From the IMG/VR virus record IMGVR_UViG_2526164602_000034: DNA of 39,455 nucleotides; one strand, 5' to 3'. The translations under genes and the position numbers were made by a program. Positions 32,868 through 36,394 of the stretch are shown here, one piece after another. The notes under the pieces were generated by a model. That model was not told the origin of the DNA. It made no database searches and worked only from the letters and a program-made list of their open reading frames with translations. The stretch's first letter is position 1. Every line of letters begins with the position of its first letter. Origin of the DNA: a virus (taxonomy: Duplodnaviria; Heunggongvirae; Uroviricota; Caudoviricetes).

Positions 32868-33410
32868 TTATTCCTCCGTCAGCGCCACATATTCAGAATG
32901 TTTAATTTCCTGGCATTCTTCAGGAATACACCCTTTTATTTCCCTGCCATAAGCGCCTACTTTAAACACCACGCACAGGGCATCACGGGAGAGCGACGGG
33001 GTCCACCAGGAGTCCGTGTTAAACATGGAGGGGATTCTCATTACCCCCAGCTTTTCACAGAGCCAGACAAGGAAATCAGGACGCTTTCTTAACTCACGTT
33101 CAGCGGTTTCAATCATTGCGGCAATCGCCGGACCTTCAGGGCATGACTCATCAGGTCTGGCAATAAAGCACGGTCCGTCCCCGATAAAAGCCACATCATC
33201 GCGCTTACGCCAGCCCGCAGGCAGAGCACCAGAAAAATAAAACTCACTGATTACGTCCATGGCAAACGGCTTTAAGCGCAATCCGGCAGCGCCTGTATTT
33301 TTCAGTAATGCCCGAAGAATACTGTTGCGTAGCGGTAAAACAGTCTGTTGATATTTGGTGAAATATTTATTTGTCTGCACACGGTCTAATTTGAAATAAA
33401 AATATGCCAT
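32868..33410 (-). CDS. Hypothetical protein
   Basis: 180-aa ORF preceded by a 97-bp AT-rich gap after gam. Confidence 0.45.
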   Translation of the reverse strand: MAYFYFKLDRVQTNKYFTKYQQTVLPLRNSILRALLKNTGAAGLRLKPFAMDVISEFYFSGALPAGWRKRDDVAFIGDGPCFIARPDESCPEGPAIAAMIETAERELRKRPDFLVWLCEKLGVMRIPSMFNTDSWWTPSLSRDALCVVFKVGAYGREIKGCIPEECQEIKHSEYVALTEE

Positions 33411-33507: not shown

Positions 33508-34038
33508 TTATTTATTCAGTCCGGCGTCCTGTTCAAAAGGCTCGACATAAAAACTTTCAGCGCCTTTATTCACCTTAATACCGGCAATCCCTTTCACCGC
33601 ATCCGGCTCCGCCAGGACCGCTTCCTTGTTCACTTCCTCTTTCGTGCGGATAAAACGCTCAAGGCCCATACGGCGCAGCATTTCAATCACACCTTCCACA
33701 TCACGACTGACGCTGCATGATGGATTCCCCAGTCGCCATGACACCGTTCCGGTGGTCAGATTGGCAGTTTTGGTTTTGCCGCCGTTCGTCAGCTCATCAC
33801 GGTTGGTTTTGCACCAGTCCTGAATCCCCTTAAAAAGCACTTTGATTTCTTTTTTAAGGTTTTCAATCTGCGGCGTATAACGGGCGGTGATTTCTGCCAC
33901 TTCATCATTCATCGCTGTTTCCAGGCGCAGCGCCTCTCGCTGAATATCGCCCAGGGTGCGGATATCGCGGCTGACCTCTTCACGGGTCTGCGGTGCCGCC
34001 TCTGCTGCGGCCTTTAATTTTGTAACGCGTTTTGCCAT
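33508..34038 (-). CDS. gam: Gam-like host-nuclease inhibitor (DNA-end-binding)
   Basis: 176-aa ORF in the early region in the Mu gam position and of the Mu Gam size. Confidence 0.75.
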   Translation of the reverse strand: MAKRVTKLKAAAEAAPQTREEVSRDIRTLGDIQREALRLETAMNDEVAEITARYTPQIENLKKEIKVLFKGIQDWCKTNRDELTNGGKTKTANLTTGTVSWRLGNPSCSVSRDVEGVIEMLRRMGLERFIRTKEEVNKEAVLAEPDAVKGIAGIKVNKGAESFYVEPFEQDAGLNK

Positions 34039-34049
34039 TTTGTTTTTCC

Positions 34050-34343
34050 TTATTGCAGTGTGCCTGATGCTTTATGCACGCGGTGGCGTTTAATGATGGC
34101 ATCCGCCCCAAAAGCCTGTACAGATGCCTGAAATTCCGCTGAGAGAAACTGAATAATTTCAGGGCTGTGATACTGGAGAATACTTGCATAAACGTCACAG
34201 AGTGACGTCGGCCTGTTATTCGTATCACGTTCTGTTTTTACATCCACACCAATCTTTTCATGCACTTCAACACAGTCATTGCCTGCCGGTTTTTCGTCAT
34301 GCGAAACATGCTTAAATTCAAAAATAACGCGTACTTTGCTCAT
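34050..34343 (-). CDS. Hypothetical small protein, tandem paralogue 2
   Basis: ATG at 34343 (MSKVRVIFEFKHV...); N-terminus matches the upstream neighbour MSKVVRIIFEYKEHV. Confidence 0.5.
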   Translation of the reverse strand: MSKVRVIFEFKHVSHDEKPAGNDCVEVHEKIGVDVKTERDTNNRPTSLCDVYASILQYHSPEIIQFLSAEFQASVQAFGADAIIKRHRVHKASGTLQ

Positions 34344-34347
34344 GGAA

Positions 34348-34620
34348 TTACCCCTGCTGATTAAATTCATTACCTTTAATAACCCCGGAACGCATGCTCA
34401 TATCTTTCATGAGCGCACTGGCTTTCATTGCCACAAGTTCAGCAAAGTCTCTGCTTTCCGCGAGCATAACCACCCCAAAAATCATGGCGGGTCCATCACC
34501 TTTCTGCTTTATCCCGGTTGAACGTATGTCCAGACTTACCCCCATGCGCACTGTTCCATCAGCGTTTTTATGGATAACGTGCTCCTTGTATTCGAAAATA
34601 ATGCGTACGACTTTACTCAC
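34348..34620 (-). CDS. Hypothetical small protein, tandem paralogue 1
   Basis: 90-aa ORF; shares the N-terminal MSKV-RIIFE-K-HV pattern with the next gene. Confidence 0.5.
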   Translation of the reverse strand: MSKVVRIIFEYKEHVIHKNADGTVRMGVSLDIRSTGIKQKGDGPAMIFGVVMLAESRDFAELVAMKASALMKDMSMRSGVIKGNEFNQQG

Positions 34621-34898
34621 CCTCTGGTCCTCGTTCTGTTTGGATAACTGACCCGGCGTCTGACCTCACGGCAGAACCGAATCATGGCATTAAAGGCTTC
34701 TTCCTCCGTCACCGCTTCCGGTATCCCCGGAACCAGTAACTGCTCCTGTTCATCACGTCCATGACGCGCCATAACCTCAATCACATGCCGTACCGTGGCA
34801 GGCTTTCCGGCAACTATCGGCAATGCACCTTCCGGCAGGACGTAACCAAACTCAATAAGACCACTCGACCACGCCCATGCAATGAGATTTTTTTTCAC
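34617..34898 (-). CDS. Hypothetical protein
   Basis: 93-aa ORF, 4-nt overlaps on both sides. Confidence 0.45.
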   Translation of the reverse strand: MKKNLIAWAWSSGLIEFGYVLPEGALPIVAGKPATVRHVIEVMARHGRDEQEQLLVPGIPEAVTEEEAFNAMIRFCREVRRRVSYPNRTRTRG

Positions 34899-34899
34899 C

Positions 34900-35166
34900 T
34901 CACACCTCCCAGTAAACCGTGCAGCCGCTGATGCGGGTGGCCTTCACACGGCGGCGCAGGCCGTTGGTCTGTATGGTGATTTCAATTTCACCGGTTCCCT
35001 GCACGTTGCCTACCGGCGGCGTGGTTTTCAGTGCAAAACGTTGTGGGTAGCGCTTACTGCGTTCCAGTACCGCACCGGCAAGTTCGGTCAGACGGCGCGC
35101 GCTGTTCAGGGAGTCGAATAAATTCATTTTGTTACCGCAGGATTGCATATTCATATAACACCTCAT
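34900..35166 (-). CDS. Hypothetical protein
   Basis: 88-aa ORF in the early operon. Confidence 0.4.
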   Translation of the reverse strand: MRCYMNMQSCGNKMNLFDSLNSARRLTELAGAVLERSKRYPQRFALKTTPPVGNVQGTGEIEITIQTNGLRRRVKATRISGCTVYWEV

Positions 35167-35394
35167 TTAGCTGACTTGTTTCGCACCAACAGAACGGCAT
35201 ATTCCGCTGTAAACGTCTGTCGCACCTTCGCGATCAAGTCCGGCAGATATCACCATTCGTGTGCGGTCATTAAATTCAAAAAGTAAATCGCCACATTCTT
35301 TATTTTCGGCCAGTGAAATCACCTTCACGTTATCGAAATTAACCAGGTAAAAGCGTCCGTAAATATCAGGAATATAAAATACCGCCATAATCAC
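35167..35394 (-). CDS. Hypothetical small protein at the Mu kil position
   Basis: 75-aa ORF starting 4 nt inside the end of the B gene, the position and size of Mu kil. Confidence 0.4.
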   Translation of the reverse strand: MIMAVFYIPDIYGRFYLVNFDNVKVISLAENKECGDLLFEFNDRTRMVISAGLDREGATDVYSGICRSVGAKQVS

Positions 35395-36323
35395 ACCTGT
35401 GAGAGTAATTCAGGGTTGGTATAAACCTCTTTAAAGGCCGCATTAATATGTTTTTCTGTCAGCGCCGCACCTTCACCGCTGGCGGTGAGCCACGCCTGGT
35501 TAAGCGTATGTGTCAGAACGCGTAACGCTCCCGGCTTTTCAGCGATAGCCTGCATGACGGCCAGCTCGGCCTCACCACTGATACCCCATGCCCTGGCAAT
35601 GGCCAGCACATCCGCCTTTTTGGCCTTGCGAAGTTGTTTTGTACGGGCAAGACGGCTGAACAGGCGCGATAAATCATCAAAGGCGCGGCGTCCACCTTTA
35701 AACAATCCGCGCGGGTTACCAATAAGCACCATCCCGATCCCCGTGGCGTCCTGAATTGCCCGGAGTTGCTCCAGACCGTCAATACCAAGATGATCCGCCT
35801 CATCCACAATCACCAGTCCACGCGTTCCCATCAGGCGACGGCGGATGGCGCGGGATAATGCCCCTTTGTTCGCGCGGGTGTAATCAATCCCCAGCGCATC
35901 GGCCAGCTCCAGCAGACACTCCGTGACGCTGGAGTGCGCGGGTGACAGGGTGATCATCCAGGTGTTTGGTTGCTCCTGGCAGTAATTACGGGCGGTGGCC
36001 GTTTTACCTACCCCCGGCACGCCCACAATGACGTTAATACAGCCCATCAGGCGAACCGCCTGAAACAGTGCGCGCAGCTCCTGAACTGTCTGCGTTTCCA
36101 CAAACTGCGGCGGTTCCGGCAGTGCGCTTTGTTTATTCCAGTTCTCATACCAGGAACGCAGGGAAGCAGCCACAGCGGCGTTATCGCCTTTATATTTCCC
36201 CTTGCGGAAAGCCGATAATGTGCCGTCGGAAATTCCCGCCTCTCTGGCGATGGCATACTGCGTCAGTACGCCGCCATCAATAAGTTCATCAATGGTCTTG
36301 ATTACATCGTTAATATCAGTCAT
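35391..36323 (-). CDS. B: Transposition ATPase, Mu B-like (AAA+ target DNA activator)
   Basis: KYKGDNAAV, LPEPPQFVETQTV, Walker A GVPGVGKT, Walker B VIVDEADHLG, KKADV and KPGALRV line up with Mu B. Confidence 0.9.
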   Translation of the reverse strand: MTDINDVIKTIDELIDGGVLTQYAIAREAGISDGTLSAFRKGKYKGDNAAVAASLRSWYENWNKQSALPEPPQFVETQTVQELRALFQAVRLMGCINVIVGVPGVGKTATARNYCQEQPNTWMITLSPAHSSVTECLLELADALGIDYTRANKGALSRAIRRRLMGTRGLVIVDEADHLGIDGLEQLRAIQDATGIGMVLIGNPRGLFKGGRRAFDDLSRLFSRLARTKQLRKAKKADVLAIARAWGISGEAELAVMQAIAEKPGALRVLTHTLNQAWLTASGEGAALTEKHINAAFKEVYTNPELLSQV

Positions 36324-36361: not shown

Positions 36362-36394
36362 AACCTGAGTCGCCGCTCGGGTTATTTTTTATTT
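36362..36394 (+). terminator. Terminator-like hairpin in the A-B intergenic region (plus-strand orientation)
   Basis: AACCTGAG-TCGCCG-CTCGGGTT followed by ATTTTTTATTT, overlapping the 3' end of the transposase gene. Confidence 0.35.

What the first reader, a model, noticed from the sequence alone, without database searches (positions are those of the whole stretch)
34050..34620. Tandem paralogous small genes upstream of gam
Two adjacent ORFs of about 90-97 aa begin MSKVVRIIFEYKEHV and MSKVRVIFEFKHV and share a similar overall pattern, suggesting a local duplication followed by divergence. Duplicated, fast-diverging small early proteins are a common signature of host-interaction or counter-defence functions.
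Basis: seen in the sequence. Interest (0 to 1): 0.45.

Follow-up and report, generated by a model that had tools for sequence, protein, structure and literature searches.

The report
Duplicated small early genes in Mu-like prophage
Two neighbouring small genes just before gam in the Mu-like prophage Sp18 of E. coli O157:H7 are real but very diverged copies of one gene. They evolve much faster than their neighbours and are distantly related to phage Mu gene E6 (Gnarl2), a small protein recently shown to alter the host O-antigen. Their own function is untested.

Summary
On the minus strand, ECs_4950 (A, 34348-34620, 90 aa) and ECs_4951 (B, 34050-34343, 97 aa) lie directly upstream of gam in prophage Sp18 of E. 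coli O157:H7 Sakai. BLASTP sees only the first 17 residues. Family profiles align over 63-74 columns (E 1e-6 to 6e-8). With the N-termini removed, the match still scores P 4e-4, about 6 SD above column shuffles.

Related Mu-like prophages of Citrobacter, Salmonella and Serratia, and one E. coli lineage, carry a single B-like gene in the same slot. That single copy uses the leader that precedes A in Sp18, which supports a tandem duplication.

Both genes are hypervariable. A alleles are 100/92/81/55% identical and B alleles 100/60%, inside backbones that are at least 94% identical. dN/dS is 0.3-0.8, against 0.02-0.09 for MuB and Gam.

B is predicted confidently as a long beta-hairpin plus two helices, with no relative of known structure. 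A's model failed.

The nearest characterised relative is Mu E6/gp7, called Gnarl2, an O-antigen-altering accessory protein. The link is weak (hhalign E 1.4e-3, 71 columns, z about 5.7).

The most likely function is a small early host-binding effector, possibly acting on LPS. This is inferred, not shown.

The parts
34348..34620 (-). ORF-A = ECs_4950, 90 aa, GTG start (ATG in other alleles). Upstream copy of the pair; phrog_4107; basic (pI 9.45).
34050..34343 (-). ORF-B = ECs_4951, 97 aa. Downstream copy; phrog_2230. The AlphaFold2 model has a beta-hairpin (residues 4-21 and 24-39) plus helices 48-58 and 60-77, mean pLDDT 84.
34585..34620 (-). Conserved 5' module of A (codons 1-12, MSKVVRIIFEYK). 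Codons 2-12 are identical at DNA level in alleles whose proteins are only 55-80% identical overall. It is about 80% identical in DNA to the 5' module of B.
34312..34343 (-). Conserved 5' module of B (MSKVRVIFEFK). The first 32 nt are identical between the 100% and the 60% B alleles.
34628..34632 (-). GAGGA ribosome-binding site 8 nt before A's start. A's GTG (34618-34620) overlaps the TGA stop of ECs_4949 (34617-34619) as GTGA, an arrangement typical of translational coupling.
   Evidence: read from the sequence; ORF ends
34351..34355 (-). AGGGG ribosome-binding site for B, inside the last codons of A. B's ATG lies 4 nt after A's TAA stop.
   Evidence: read from the sequence
33508..34038 (-). 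gam (Mu Gam family), the next cistron downstream (context).
34617..34898 (-). ECs_4949, 93 aa, phrog_1518, the cistron upstream of A (context). It is an optional cassette, absent from some otherwise near-identical prophages.

Best explanation
ECs_4950 (A) and ECs_4951 (B) are two diverged tandem copies of one small early gene of enterobacterial Mu-like phages. Both are internal, tightly packed cistrons of the early operon (transposase A, B, kil ... gam), so they are made only on infection or induction.

Shown here:
- They are homologous beyond the N-terminus.
- Relatives carry one copy in the same slot, using A's leader.
- Both are real coding genes under purifying but relaxed selection.
- Both exist as deeply diverged allele cassettes that recombine independently inside near-identical prophage backbones. 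The cassette boundary sits at the conserved first 11-12 codons.

Predicted: B folds as a long two-stranded beta-hairpin packed against two helices. The conserved N-terminal strand is part of the core.

Inferred:
- The proteins have no catalytic features and act stoichiometrically by binding a host protein.
- The family is distantly related to Mu E6/gp7 (Gnarl2), whose expression shortens O-antigen in wild E. coli. The most likely target is therefore a step of LPS/O-antigen synthesis, changing the cell surface of the infected or induced cell (superinfection exclusion or receptor masking).
- The duplication and the allele diversity change or broaden target specificity.
For: Paralogy:
- hhalign of the family profiles gives 91-95% probability, E 1e-6 to 6e-8, over 63-74 columns.
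- With the N-termini removed, P is 4e-4, about 6 SD above 200 column shuffles.
- A and B are reciprocal best HMM hits among the 297 window ORFs.
- Three of the four secondary-structure elements of the B model fall in register with those of A's low-confidence model.

Duplication:
- 39 of 41 IMG/VR loci carry A then B, as do 226 of the 232 complete E. coli genomes that have the region.
- Citrobacter, Salmonella and Serratia prophages and E. coli locus L042 have one B-like gene in the same slot.
- In L042, B's body follows the leader that precedes A elsewhere. In Citrobacter the single gene overlaps the stop of the 4949-like gene exactly as A does here.

Real, fast-evolving genes:
- dN/dS is 0.33-0.43 for A and 0.33-0.83 for B, against 0.02-0.05 for MuB and 0.04-0.09 for Gam. 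Divergent alleles have dS 0.7-0.9 against 0.07-0.2 in the flanks.
- The allele combinations are mosaic.

Operon context: no minus-strand promoter-like or terminator-like site inside the region, and no Rfam match.

Link to Gnarl2:
- The Mu gp7 family against the merged A+B profile gives E 1.4e-3, 71 columns, score 22.2. The shuffle null is 10.6 +/- 2.0, maximum 15.8.
- Mu gp7 matches phrog_2230 at E 0.009 over residues 1-78.
- The hits are reciprocal top hits, though weak.
- Mu gp7 (NP_050611.1, NC_000929 4784..5047) is gnarl2. It downshifts O-antigen bands and raises T5 infection 1e5-1e6-fold in ECOR strains (PMC12373910).

From my own knowledge, not tested here: Mu adsorbs to LPS core, so an early LPS-altering function would be plausible for this phage type.
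Against: - The link to Mu gp7 is weak. Mu gp7 was not recovered at E <= 1e-3 by the HMMER search of 1.84 billion representatives. Shallow family profiles gave only E 0.05-0.16.
- At roughly 20% identity or below, function need not be conserved. Gnarl2's own direct target is unknown.
- The AlphaFold2 model of A is unreliable (pLDDT 47), so a common fold is not demonstrated.
- The same 100% allele pair occurs in strains named O157:H7, O145:H28 and O26. There is therefore no obvious one-to-one tie to an O-serogroup.
- No experiment exists on either gene.
Confidence: 0.5

Rival explanations
1. The two genes are not paralogues. Two unrelated small genes share only a 5' 'joint' of about 12 codons, a recombination linker or translation-initiation module that Mu-like phages use for cassette exchange.
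For: - BLASTP similarity stops at residue 17.
- DNA identity is about 80% in the first 50 nt and near random afterwards.
- The first 32-36 nt of each gene are invariant across alleles that are otherwise 40-45% diverged in protein, and allele boundaries fall there.
Against: - With the first 15-17 residues deleted, the profiles still align in the same register: P 4e-4, score 23.9, shuffle maximum 17.3.
- The upstream ribosome-binding regions differ.
- Length and the order of secondary-structure elements are alike.
- The N-terminal strand is the most conserved segment in every branch of the family, including the single-copy Salmonella genes. This points to a protein-level constraint.
Confidence: 0.1
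2. They are true paralogues, but they serve the phage's own DNA transactions, for example as accessory factors of Gam/DUF3164 end protection or of replicative transposition, rather than acting on the host envelope.
For: - The B-like gene always lies immediately upstream of the gam slot, whether that slot holds Gam or DUF3164.
- The genes are tightly packed in the same operon.
- A is basic (pI 9.45), which is compatible with nucleic-acid binding.
- The Mu semi-essential early region hosts replication-related functions such as arm and gam (PMC4553209).
Against: - Core DNA-transaction partners would be expected to be conserved. A and B instead show dN/dS 5-10 times that of Gam and MuB, with allele swapping independent of the gam allele.
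- In Mu itself gp7 is not adjacent to gam.
- There is no similarity to any DNA-binding family in Pfam or NCBIfam, and no sequence match in the PDB.
- The only tested relative has an envelope phenotype.
Confidence: 0.15
3. They are true paralogues that inhibit intracellular anti-phage defence systems (restriction, abortive infection and the like). The allele diversity would reflect an arms race with variable host immunity genes.
For: - They lie in a hypervariable cassette region of an early operon, next to kil, gam and a gene whose PHROG is labelled 'host nuclease inhibitor'.
- Presence/absence varies and deep alleles exist.
- The family is restricted to Enterobacteriaceae Mu-like prophages: about 12 genuine hits in 1.84 billion representatives.
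Against: - No match to any known anti-defence or defence model (PADLOC none; Pfam and NCBIfam none).
- Neither is an acidic DNA mimic.
- Overall dN/dS is below 1.
- The tested relative Gnarl2 acted through the O-antigen barrier, not an intracellular system.
Confidence: 0.2

Closest known systems
Phage Mu gp7 (E6, Mup07, NP_050611.1) = Gnarl2 of Silas et al., Nat Commun 2025 (PMC12373910)
   Same: - Small size (87 aa against 90 and 97).
- Same early accessory region between B/kil and gam of a Mu-type transposable phage.
- Collinear full-length alignment with an M-[AS]-K-V-hydrophobic N-terminal strand, a G/D-rich loop, a hydrophobic helix and a conserved Ser.
- hhalign E 1.4e-3 over 71 columns, z about 5.7, and a phrog_2230 match at E 0.009.
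   Different: - Identity is about 20% or less.
- It belongs to a different PHROG (10252, against 4107 and 2230).
- It was not recovered by HMMER at E <= 1e-3.
- It is single-copy in Mu and not adjacent to gam.
- The Gnarl2 phenotype (O-antigen downshift, T5 sensitisation) is untested for A and B, and Gnarl2's direct target is unknown.
Single-copy B-like 'hypothetical proteins' of Mu-like prophages in Salmonella enterica, Citrobacter braakii and Serratia (for example P0100, P0101, P0106; L044 6001-6294)
   Same: - 27-30% identical to B over the full length.
- Same slot after the 4949-like gene or kil and before the gam slot.
- Same N-terminal strand (MSNKxQVIFTFE) and the same YAxIL..NSPxII.FL..EF helix region.
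   Different: - One copy instead of two.
- Followed by DUF3164 instead of Gam in most loci.
- They contain poly-G tracts with length variation and frameshifts, which the E. coli genes lack.
Gnarl1 and Gnarl3 (small O-antigen-altering accessory proteins of lytic phages; Gnarl3 binds GalU)
   Same: Small stand-alone accessory proteins of 40-90 aa that are proposed to act by binding a host enzyme. They are a functional analogy only.
   Different: They come from other phage types. The paper groups the three genes by phenotype, not by homology.

Membership tests
Tandem paralogue pair (duplicated gene) | Statistically supported homology over most of the length, not only a short shared end | tested here: met
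   hhalign gives 91-95% probability, E 1e-6 to 6e-8, 63-74 of about 90 columns. With N-termini removed: P 4e-4, z about 6 against 200 column shuffles.
Tandem paralogue pair (duplicated gene) | Adjacent, same orientation, with single-copy relatives at the orthologous position | tested here: met
   A and B are 4 nt apart on the minus strand. Single-copy loci are L042 and L044-L052. The single copy uses A's leader.
Tandem paralogue pair (duplicated gene) | Same three-dimensional fold | tested here: inconclusive
   The B model is confident (pLDDT 84). The A model is not (pLDDT 47). The hairpin and the long helix coincide in register, but the segment that forms the first helix in B is a low-confidence strand in the A model.
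Mu E6/gp7 = Gnarl2 family | Sequence homology to Mup07 (NP_050611.1) | tested here: inconclusive
   In favour: hhalign E 1.4e-3, 71 columns, z about 5.7; A family against gp7 family E 2.3e-3; phrog_2230 E 0.009. Against: shallow profiles gave E 0.05-0.16, and Mu gp7 is absent from the HMMER hits at E <= 1e-3.
Mu E6/gp7 = Gnarl2 family | Small protein encoded in the early accessory region between B/kil and gam of a Mu-type phage | tested here: met
Mu E6/gp7 = Gnarl2 family | Expression downshifts O-antigen bands and sensitises O-antigen-positive E. coli to T5 | not testable with these tools
   The phenotype is described for Mu gp7 only (PMC12373910). No paper in the library mentions ECs4950 or ECs4951.
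PHROG families phrog_4107 (A) and phrog_2230 (B), both 'unknown function' | Full-length HMM match | tested here: met
   A matches phrog_4107 at E 1.1e-61 (1-90 of 90). B matches phrog_2230 at E 1.3e-40 (3-97 against 1-88 of 89).
Acidic DNA-mimic anti-restriction proteins (Ocr/ArdA type) | Strongly acidic protein (pI about 4) and homology to those families | tested here: not met
   pI is 9.45 for A and 6.58 for B. No Pfam, NCBIfam or PADLOC match.
Mu Gam / host-nuclease inhibitor (PF07352) | Match to the Gam profile | tested here: not met
   Only the neighbouring 176-aa gene matches PF07352. A and B have no Pfam match at E <= 1.

The most novel reading that the evidence does not exclude
A and B are two specialised Gnarl2-type effectors that each block a different host enzyme, or enzyme variant, of O-antigen/LPS assembly. 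The duplication plus the swappable allele cassettes, exchanged through the conserved 12-codon 5' module, would form a diversification system. It would let Mu-like prophages keep pace with the hypervariable O-antigen machinery of E. coli. Induction of Sp18-type prophages would then remodel the surface of O157, O26 or O111 cells.
Probability: 0.2. Interest if true: 0.6.

Novelty: new member of a known kind. Interest (0 to 1): 0.4.

Why it matters
If these proteins work like Gnarl2, a prophage present in about 4% of complete E. coli genomes (232 of 5426) would carry two small early proteins that change the O-antigen when expressed. Carriers include O157:H7, O26, O111, O145 and O103 strains. That would bear on phage susceptibility, superinfection exclusion and possibly serotyping of induced cells.

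The pair would also give a natural series of alleles (55-100% identical) for mapping specificity determinants of a protein class whose target is still unknown.

Independently of function, the work links three PHROG 'unknown function' families (4107, 2230, 10252) into one probable superfamily. It also shows a clear case of cassette exchange with a boundary inside the first 12 codons. If they do not work like Gnarl2, this is an ordinary example of diverged accessory ORFs in a phage early region.

Tried and rejected
- BLASTP of A against B found only the first 17 residues. BLASTP and tblastn against phage Mu proteins and the phage collection found nothing beyond Sp18-like inserts.
- Pfam, NCBIfam, PADLOC and PDB sequence searches gave no meaningful hit. 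The hit to an 'AI-designed TIM-barrel' (E 5e-4) has no matched stretch that passes on its own, and I treat it as spurious.
- The AlphaFold2 model of A was unusable (pLDDT 47), so no fold search was run on it.
- In the search of 1.84 billion representatives, three long hits (P0097-P0099; E 1.6e-16 to 1.3e-7) each match over 7-13 stretches. The two whose sequences I read, P0097 and P0098, are repeat proteins. I rejected all three.
- Shallow family profiles did not link Mu gp7 (E 0.05-0.16). The link appeared only with the merged, more diverse profile.
- Scans of viral and metagenome contigs for the 55% A allele (P0096) found nothing. Its locus was found by exact look-up instead.
- Literature searches for ECs4950/ECs4951, the Mu early region and anti-defence gave nothing specific. 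Only the locus-tag search 'Mup07' led to Gnarl2.
- An obligate co-evolving A-B heterodimer is made less likely because A and B allele classes occur in most combinations, and B occurs without A.
- Rejected ideas: a shared upstream translation-initiation region (the ribosome-binding regions differ), and an internal promoter, terminator or known RNA.

Full report
**What is there.** The window is the Mu-like prophage Sp18 of E. coli O157:H7 Sakai, 100% identical to NC_002695.2 over the tested 2 kb. The early operon runs on the minus strand in this order:
- transposase A, 36394-38484
- B, 35391-36323
- ECs_4947, 35167-35394
- a Kil-family gene, 34900-35166
- ECs_4949, 34617-34898
- ECs_4950 ('A'), 34348-34620, 90 aa
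- ECs_4951 ('B'), 34050-34343, 97 aa
- gam, 33508-34038 (PF07352, E 1.5e-41)

A starts with GTG, and that start overlaps the TGA of ECs_4949 (GTGA). B's ATG lies 4 nt after A's stop, and its AGGGG ribosome-binding site sits inside A. The region has no minus-strand promoter-like or terminator-like site and no Rfam match. Both genes are therefore internal cistrons of the early transcript.

**Are they paralogues?**
- BLASTP sees only residues 1-17 (12/17 identical, E 9e-4).
- At DNA level the first 50 coding nucleotides are about 80% identical, with two codon-sized indels and several synonymous differences. The upstream ribosome-binding regions are unrelated. A shared translation-initiation region is therefore not the explanation.
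- Word-index searches found only close E. coli relatives of each protein.
- A HMMER search of 1.84 billion representatives with a merged profile found about a dozen genuine relatives, all 41-98 aa. They include five B-like proteins at 27-30% identity from Salmonella and Serratia, and an A-like protein at 55% identity. Three long proteins with many matched stretches were rejected; the two I read are repeat proteins.
- With these added, hhalign of the A family against the B family gives 91% probability, E 1e-6, 63 columns. A local run gives 94.7%, E 6e-8, 74 columns.
- With the first 17 (A) and 15 (B) residues removed, the remainder still aligns in the same register: score 23.9, P 4e-4. Two hundred column shuffles gave 10.3 +/- 2.2, maximum 17.3. 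The reversed control scored 9.0.
- Among all 297 ORFs of at least 40 aa in the window, A and B are each other's only notable HMM hit.
- AlphaFold2 gives B a confident model (pLDDT 84, pTM 0.67): strands 4-21 and 24-39 forming a hairpin, then helices 48-58 and 60-77. The model of A is unreliable (pLDDT 47). It still places a hairpin (6-18, 24-35) and a long helix (56-73) where the alignment predicts them.

I conclude that the two genes are true, very diverged homologues at about 20% identity. Confidence is about 0.85. A common fold is not yet demonstrated.

**Was it a local duplication?**
- 39 of 41 related IMG/VR loci carry A followed by B. So do 226 of the 232 complete E. coli genomes that have the region.
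- Mu-like prophages of Citrobacter braakii, Salmonella and Serratia have one B-like gene in the same slot. It follows the ECs_4949-like gene or kil and precedes the gam slot.
- In Citrobacter the ATG of this single gene overlaps the stop of the 4949-like gene, exactly as A does in Sp18.
- One E. coli lineage (L042) has only B. There, the DNA upstream of B's ATG is the leader that precedes A in two-copy loci, and the sequence becomes B-type from the start codon on.
- True Mu-type prophages have one gp7.

The ancestral state is therefore one gene. Sp18-type phages have two, and the join lies at the shared 5' module. This is what a tandem duplication, or its reversal by unequal recombination, would leave.

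**How fast do they evolve?**
- In prophages whose MuB is 96-100% identical (one locus 82%) and whose Gam is 94-100% identical, A occurs in classes at about 100, 92, 81 and 55% protein identity. B occurs in classes at about 92-100 and 60%. The classes occur in most combinations.
- Nei-Gojobori dN/dS is 0.33-0.43 for A and 0.33-0.83 for B. It is 0.02-0.05 for MuB and 0.04-0.09 for Gam. The divergent alleles have dS 0.7-0.9, against 0.07-0.2 in the flanks.
- These are therefore real coding genes under relaxed but still purifying selection, and old alleles are shuffled by recombination.
- Codons 2-12 of A are identical at nucleotide level in the 100%, 81% and 55% alleles. The first 32 nt of B are identical in the 100% and 60% alleles. 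From the divergence elsewhere in the gene (about 0.3 per site, derived), roughly ten differences would be expected.
- The cassette boundary thus lies inside the conserved N-terminal module. That module is also the most conserved protein segment in every branch of the family.

**What are they?**
- No Pfam, NCBIfam, PADLOC or PDB-sequence relative exists for either protein.
- PHROGs places them in two separate 'unknown function' families, 4107 and 2230.
- The B model has no informative structural neighbour.
- A is basic (pI 9.45) and B is near neutral (pI 6.58), so neither is an acidic DNA mimic.

The useful lead is phage Mu gp7 (E6).
- It aligns collinearly with both proteins and matches phrog_2230 at E 0.009 over residues 1-78.
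- Its family aligns to the merged A+B profile with E 1.4e-3 over 71 columns. The score is 22.2, against a shuffle null of 10.6 +/- 2.0 with maximum 15.8.
- A and B are the top two, individually non-significant, hits of the gp7 HMM among the window ORFs. gp7 is the top hit of the merged and A-family HMMs among the ORFs of the first 11 kb of Mu.
- Against this, shallow profiles gave only E 0.05-0.16, and gp7 was not retrieved at E <= 1e-3 in the large search.

I put the homology at about 0.65-0.7.

Mu gp7 (NP_050611.1, NC_000929 4784..5047) is 'gnarl2' of Silas et al. (PMC12373910; preprint 10.1101/2023.04.06.535777). When expressed in wild E. coli ECOR1 and ECOR22 it downshifts O-antigen bands and raises T5 infection 1e5-1e6-fold. 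AP-MS did not reveal its direct target. The authors propose seroconversion for superinfection exclusion or receptor masking.

**Most likely mechanism.** A and B are made early after induction or infection. They probably act as small non-enzymatic binders built on a conserved scaffold (N-terminal strand and first helix) with variable surfaces. By analogy with Gnarl2, the best single guess is interference with O-antigen/LPS assembly. Duplication and allele swapping would then alter or broaden specificity.
- Shown: gene structure, homology, duplication history, evolutionary rates and cassette boundaries.
- Predicted: the fold of B.
- Inferred: the mode of action and the target pathway.

The rivals are a role with Gam/DUF3164 or transposition (supported by conserved adjacency to the gam slot and A's basic charge), inhibition of intracellular defence systems, and non-paralogy with only a shared 5' joint. 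They are weighed in their own sections.

The identical allele pair occurs in strains named O157:H7, O145:H28 and O26. This argues against a simple one-allele-per-serogroup relationship.

**Verdict.** This is a new, duplicated and hypervariable branch of a small Mu early-protein family whose type member has only recently acquired a phenotype. It is not categorically new. It is of moderate interest because it makes a concrete experiment obvious.

Noticed in passing
L044 6001-6294; L046, L048, L049, L051, L052 (alignment A10); protein clusters P0100 and P0106: B-like homologues in Salmonella and Citrobacter Mu-like prophages contain a poly-G tract at codons 22-25 (CAGGGGGGGGTA). It is G8 in intact genes, G9 or G7 in three frameshifted loci, and interrupted in one locus. 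A second G-run near the C-terminus accompanies 81-, 86-, 98- and 99-aa forms, each seen on many Salmonella contigs. This could be phase-variable on/off switching, pseudogenisation or homopolymer sequencing error. The E. coli genes have no such tract.
   Followed up: partly
window 34585-34620 and 34312-34343 (minus strand); L014, L034, L053: The first 32-36 nt of each gene are identical at DNA level between alleles that are only 55-60% identical in protein. Allele cassettes therefore begin right after codon 11-12. The cause may be a recombination joint or a nucleotide-level constraint on the start of the cistron.
   Followed up: partly
L044 6303-6941 (also L045-L049, L051, L052): In Citrobacter and Salmonella Mu-like prophages the slot occupied by gam in Sp18 and Mu holds a 212-aa DUF3164 protein instead (PF11363, E 6e-79). 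This suggests that Gam and DUF3164 are alternative cassettes at the same position.
   Followed up: partly
window 34617-34898 (ECs_4949) and 32868-33410 (ECs_4953); L010, L053: ECs_4949 and ECs_4953 are also optional or replaceable. In otherwise near-identical prophages ECs_4949 is missing, leaving only a short 3' remnant, and a 139-aa Mu gp8-like gene sits upstream of kil. ECs_4953 is absent or replaced by a protein only 24% identical. The whole stretch between B and gemA behaves as a cassette region.
   Followed up: partly
window 34617-34898: ECs_4949 is labelled 'host nuclease inhibitor' in RefSeq and in phrog_1518. It has no Pfam or NCBIfam match and no similarity to Gam, so the label looks unsupported.
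   Followed up: no
L010 3625-3996; proteins P0001, P0013 (116 aa): Where ECs_4949 is absent, gene callers extend A upstream to 116-123 aa through an in-frame ATG. The conserved MSKV start with its GAGGA ribosome-binding site is still present, so the longer forms are probably annotation artefacts.
   Followed up: partly
window 34279-34521 and 34394-34651 (plus strand): Two antisense ORFs of 80 and 85 aa overlap A and B on the plus strand. They are not annotated in RefSeq and were not tested further. They are probably chance ORFs.
   Followed up: no
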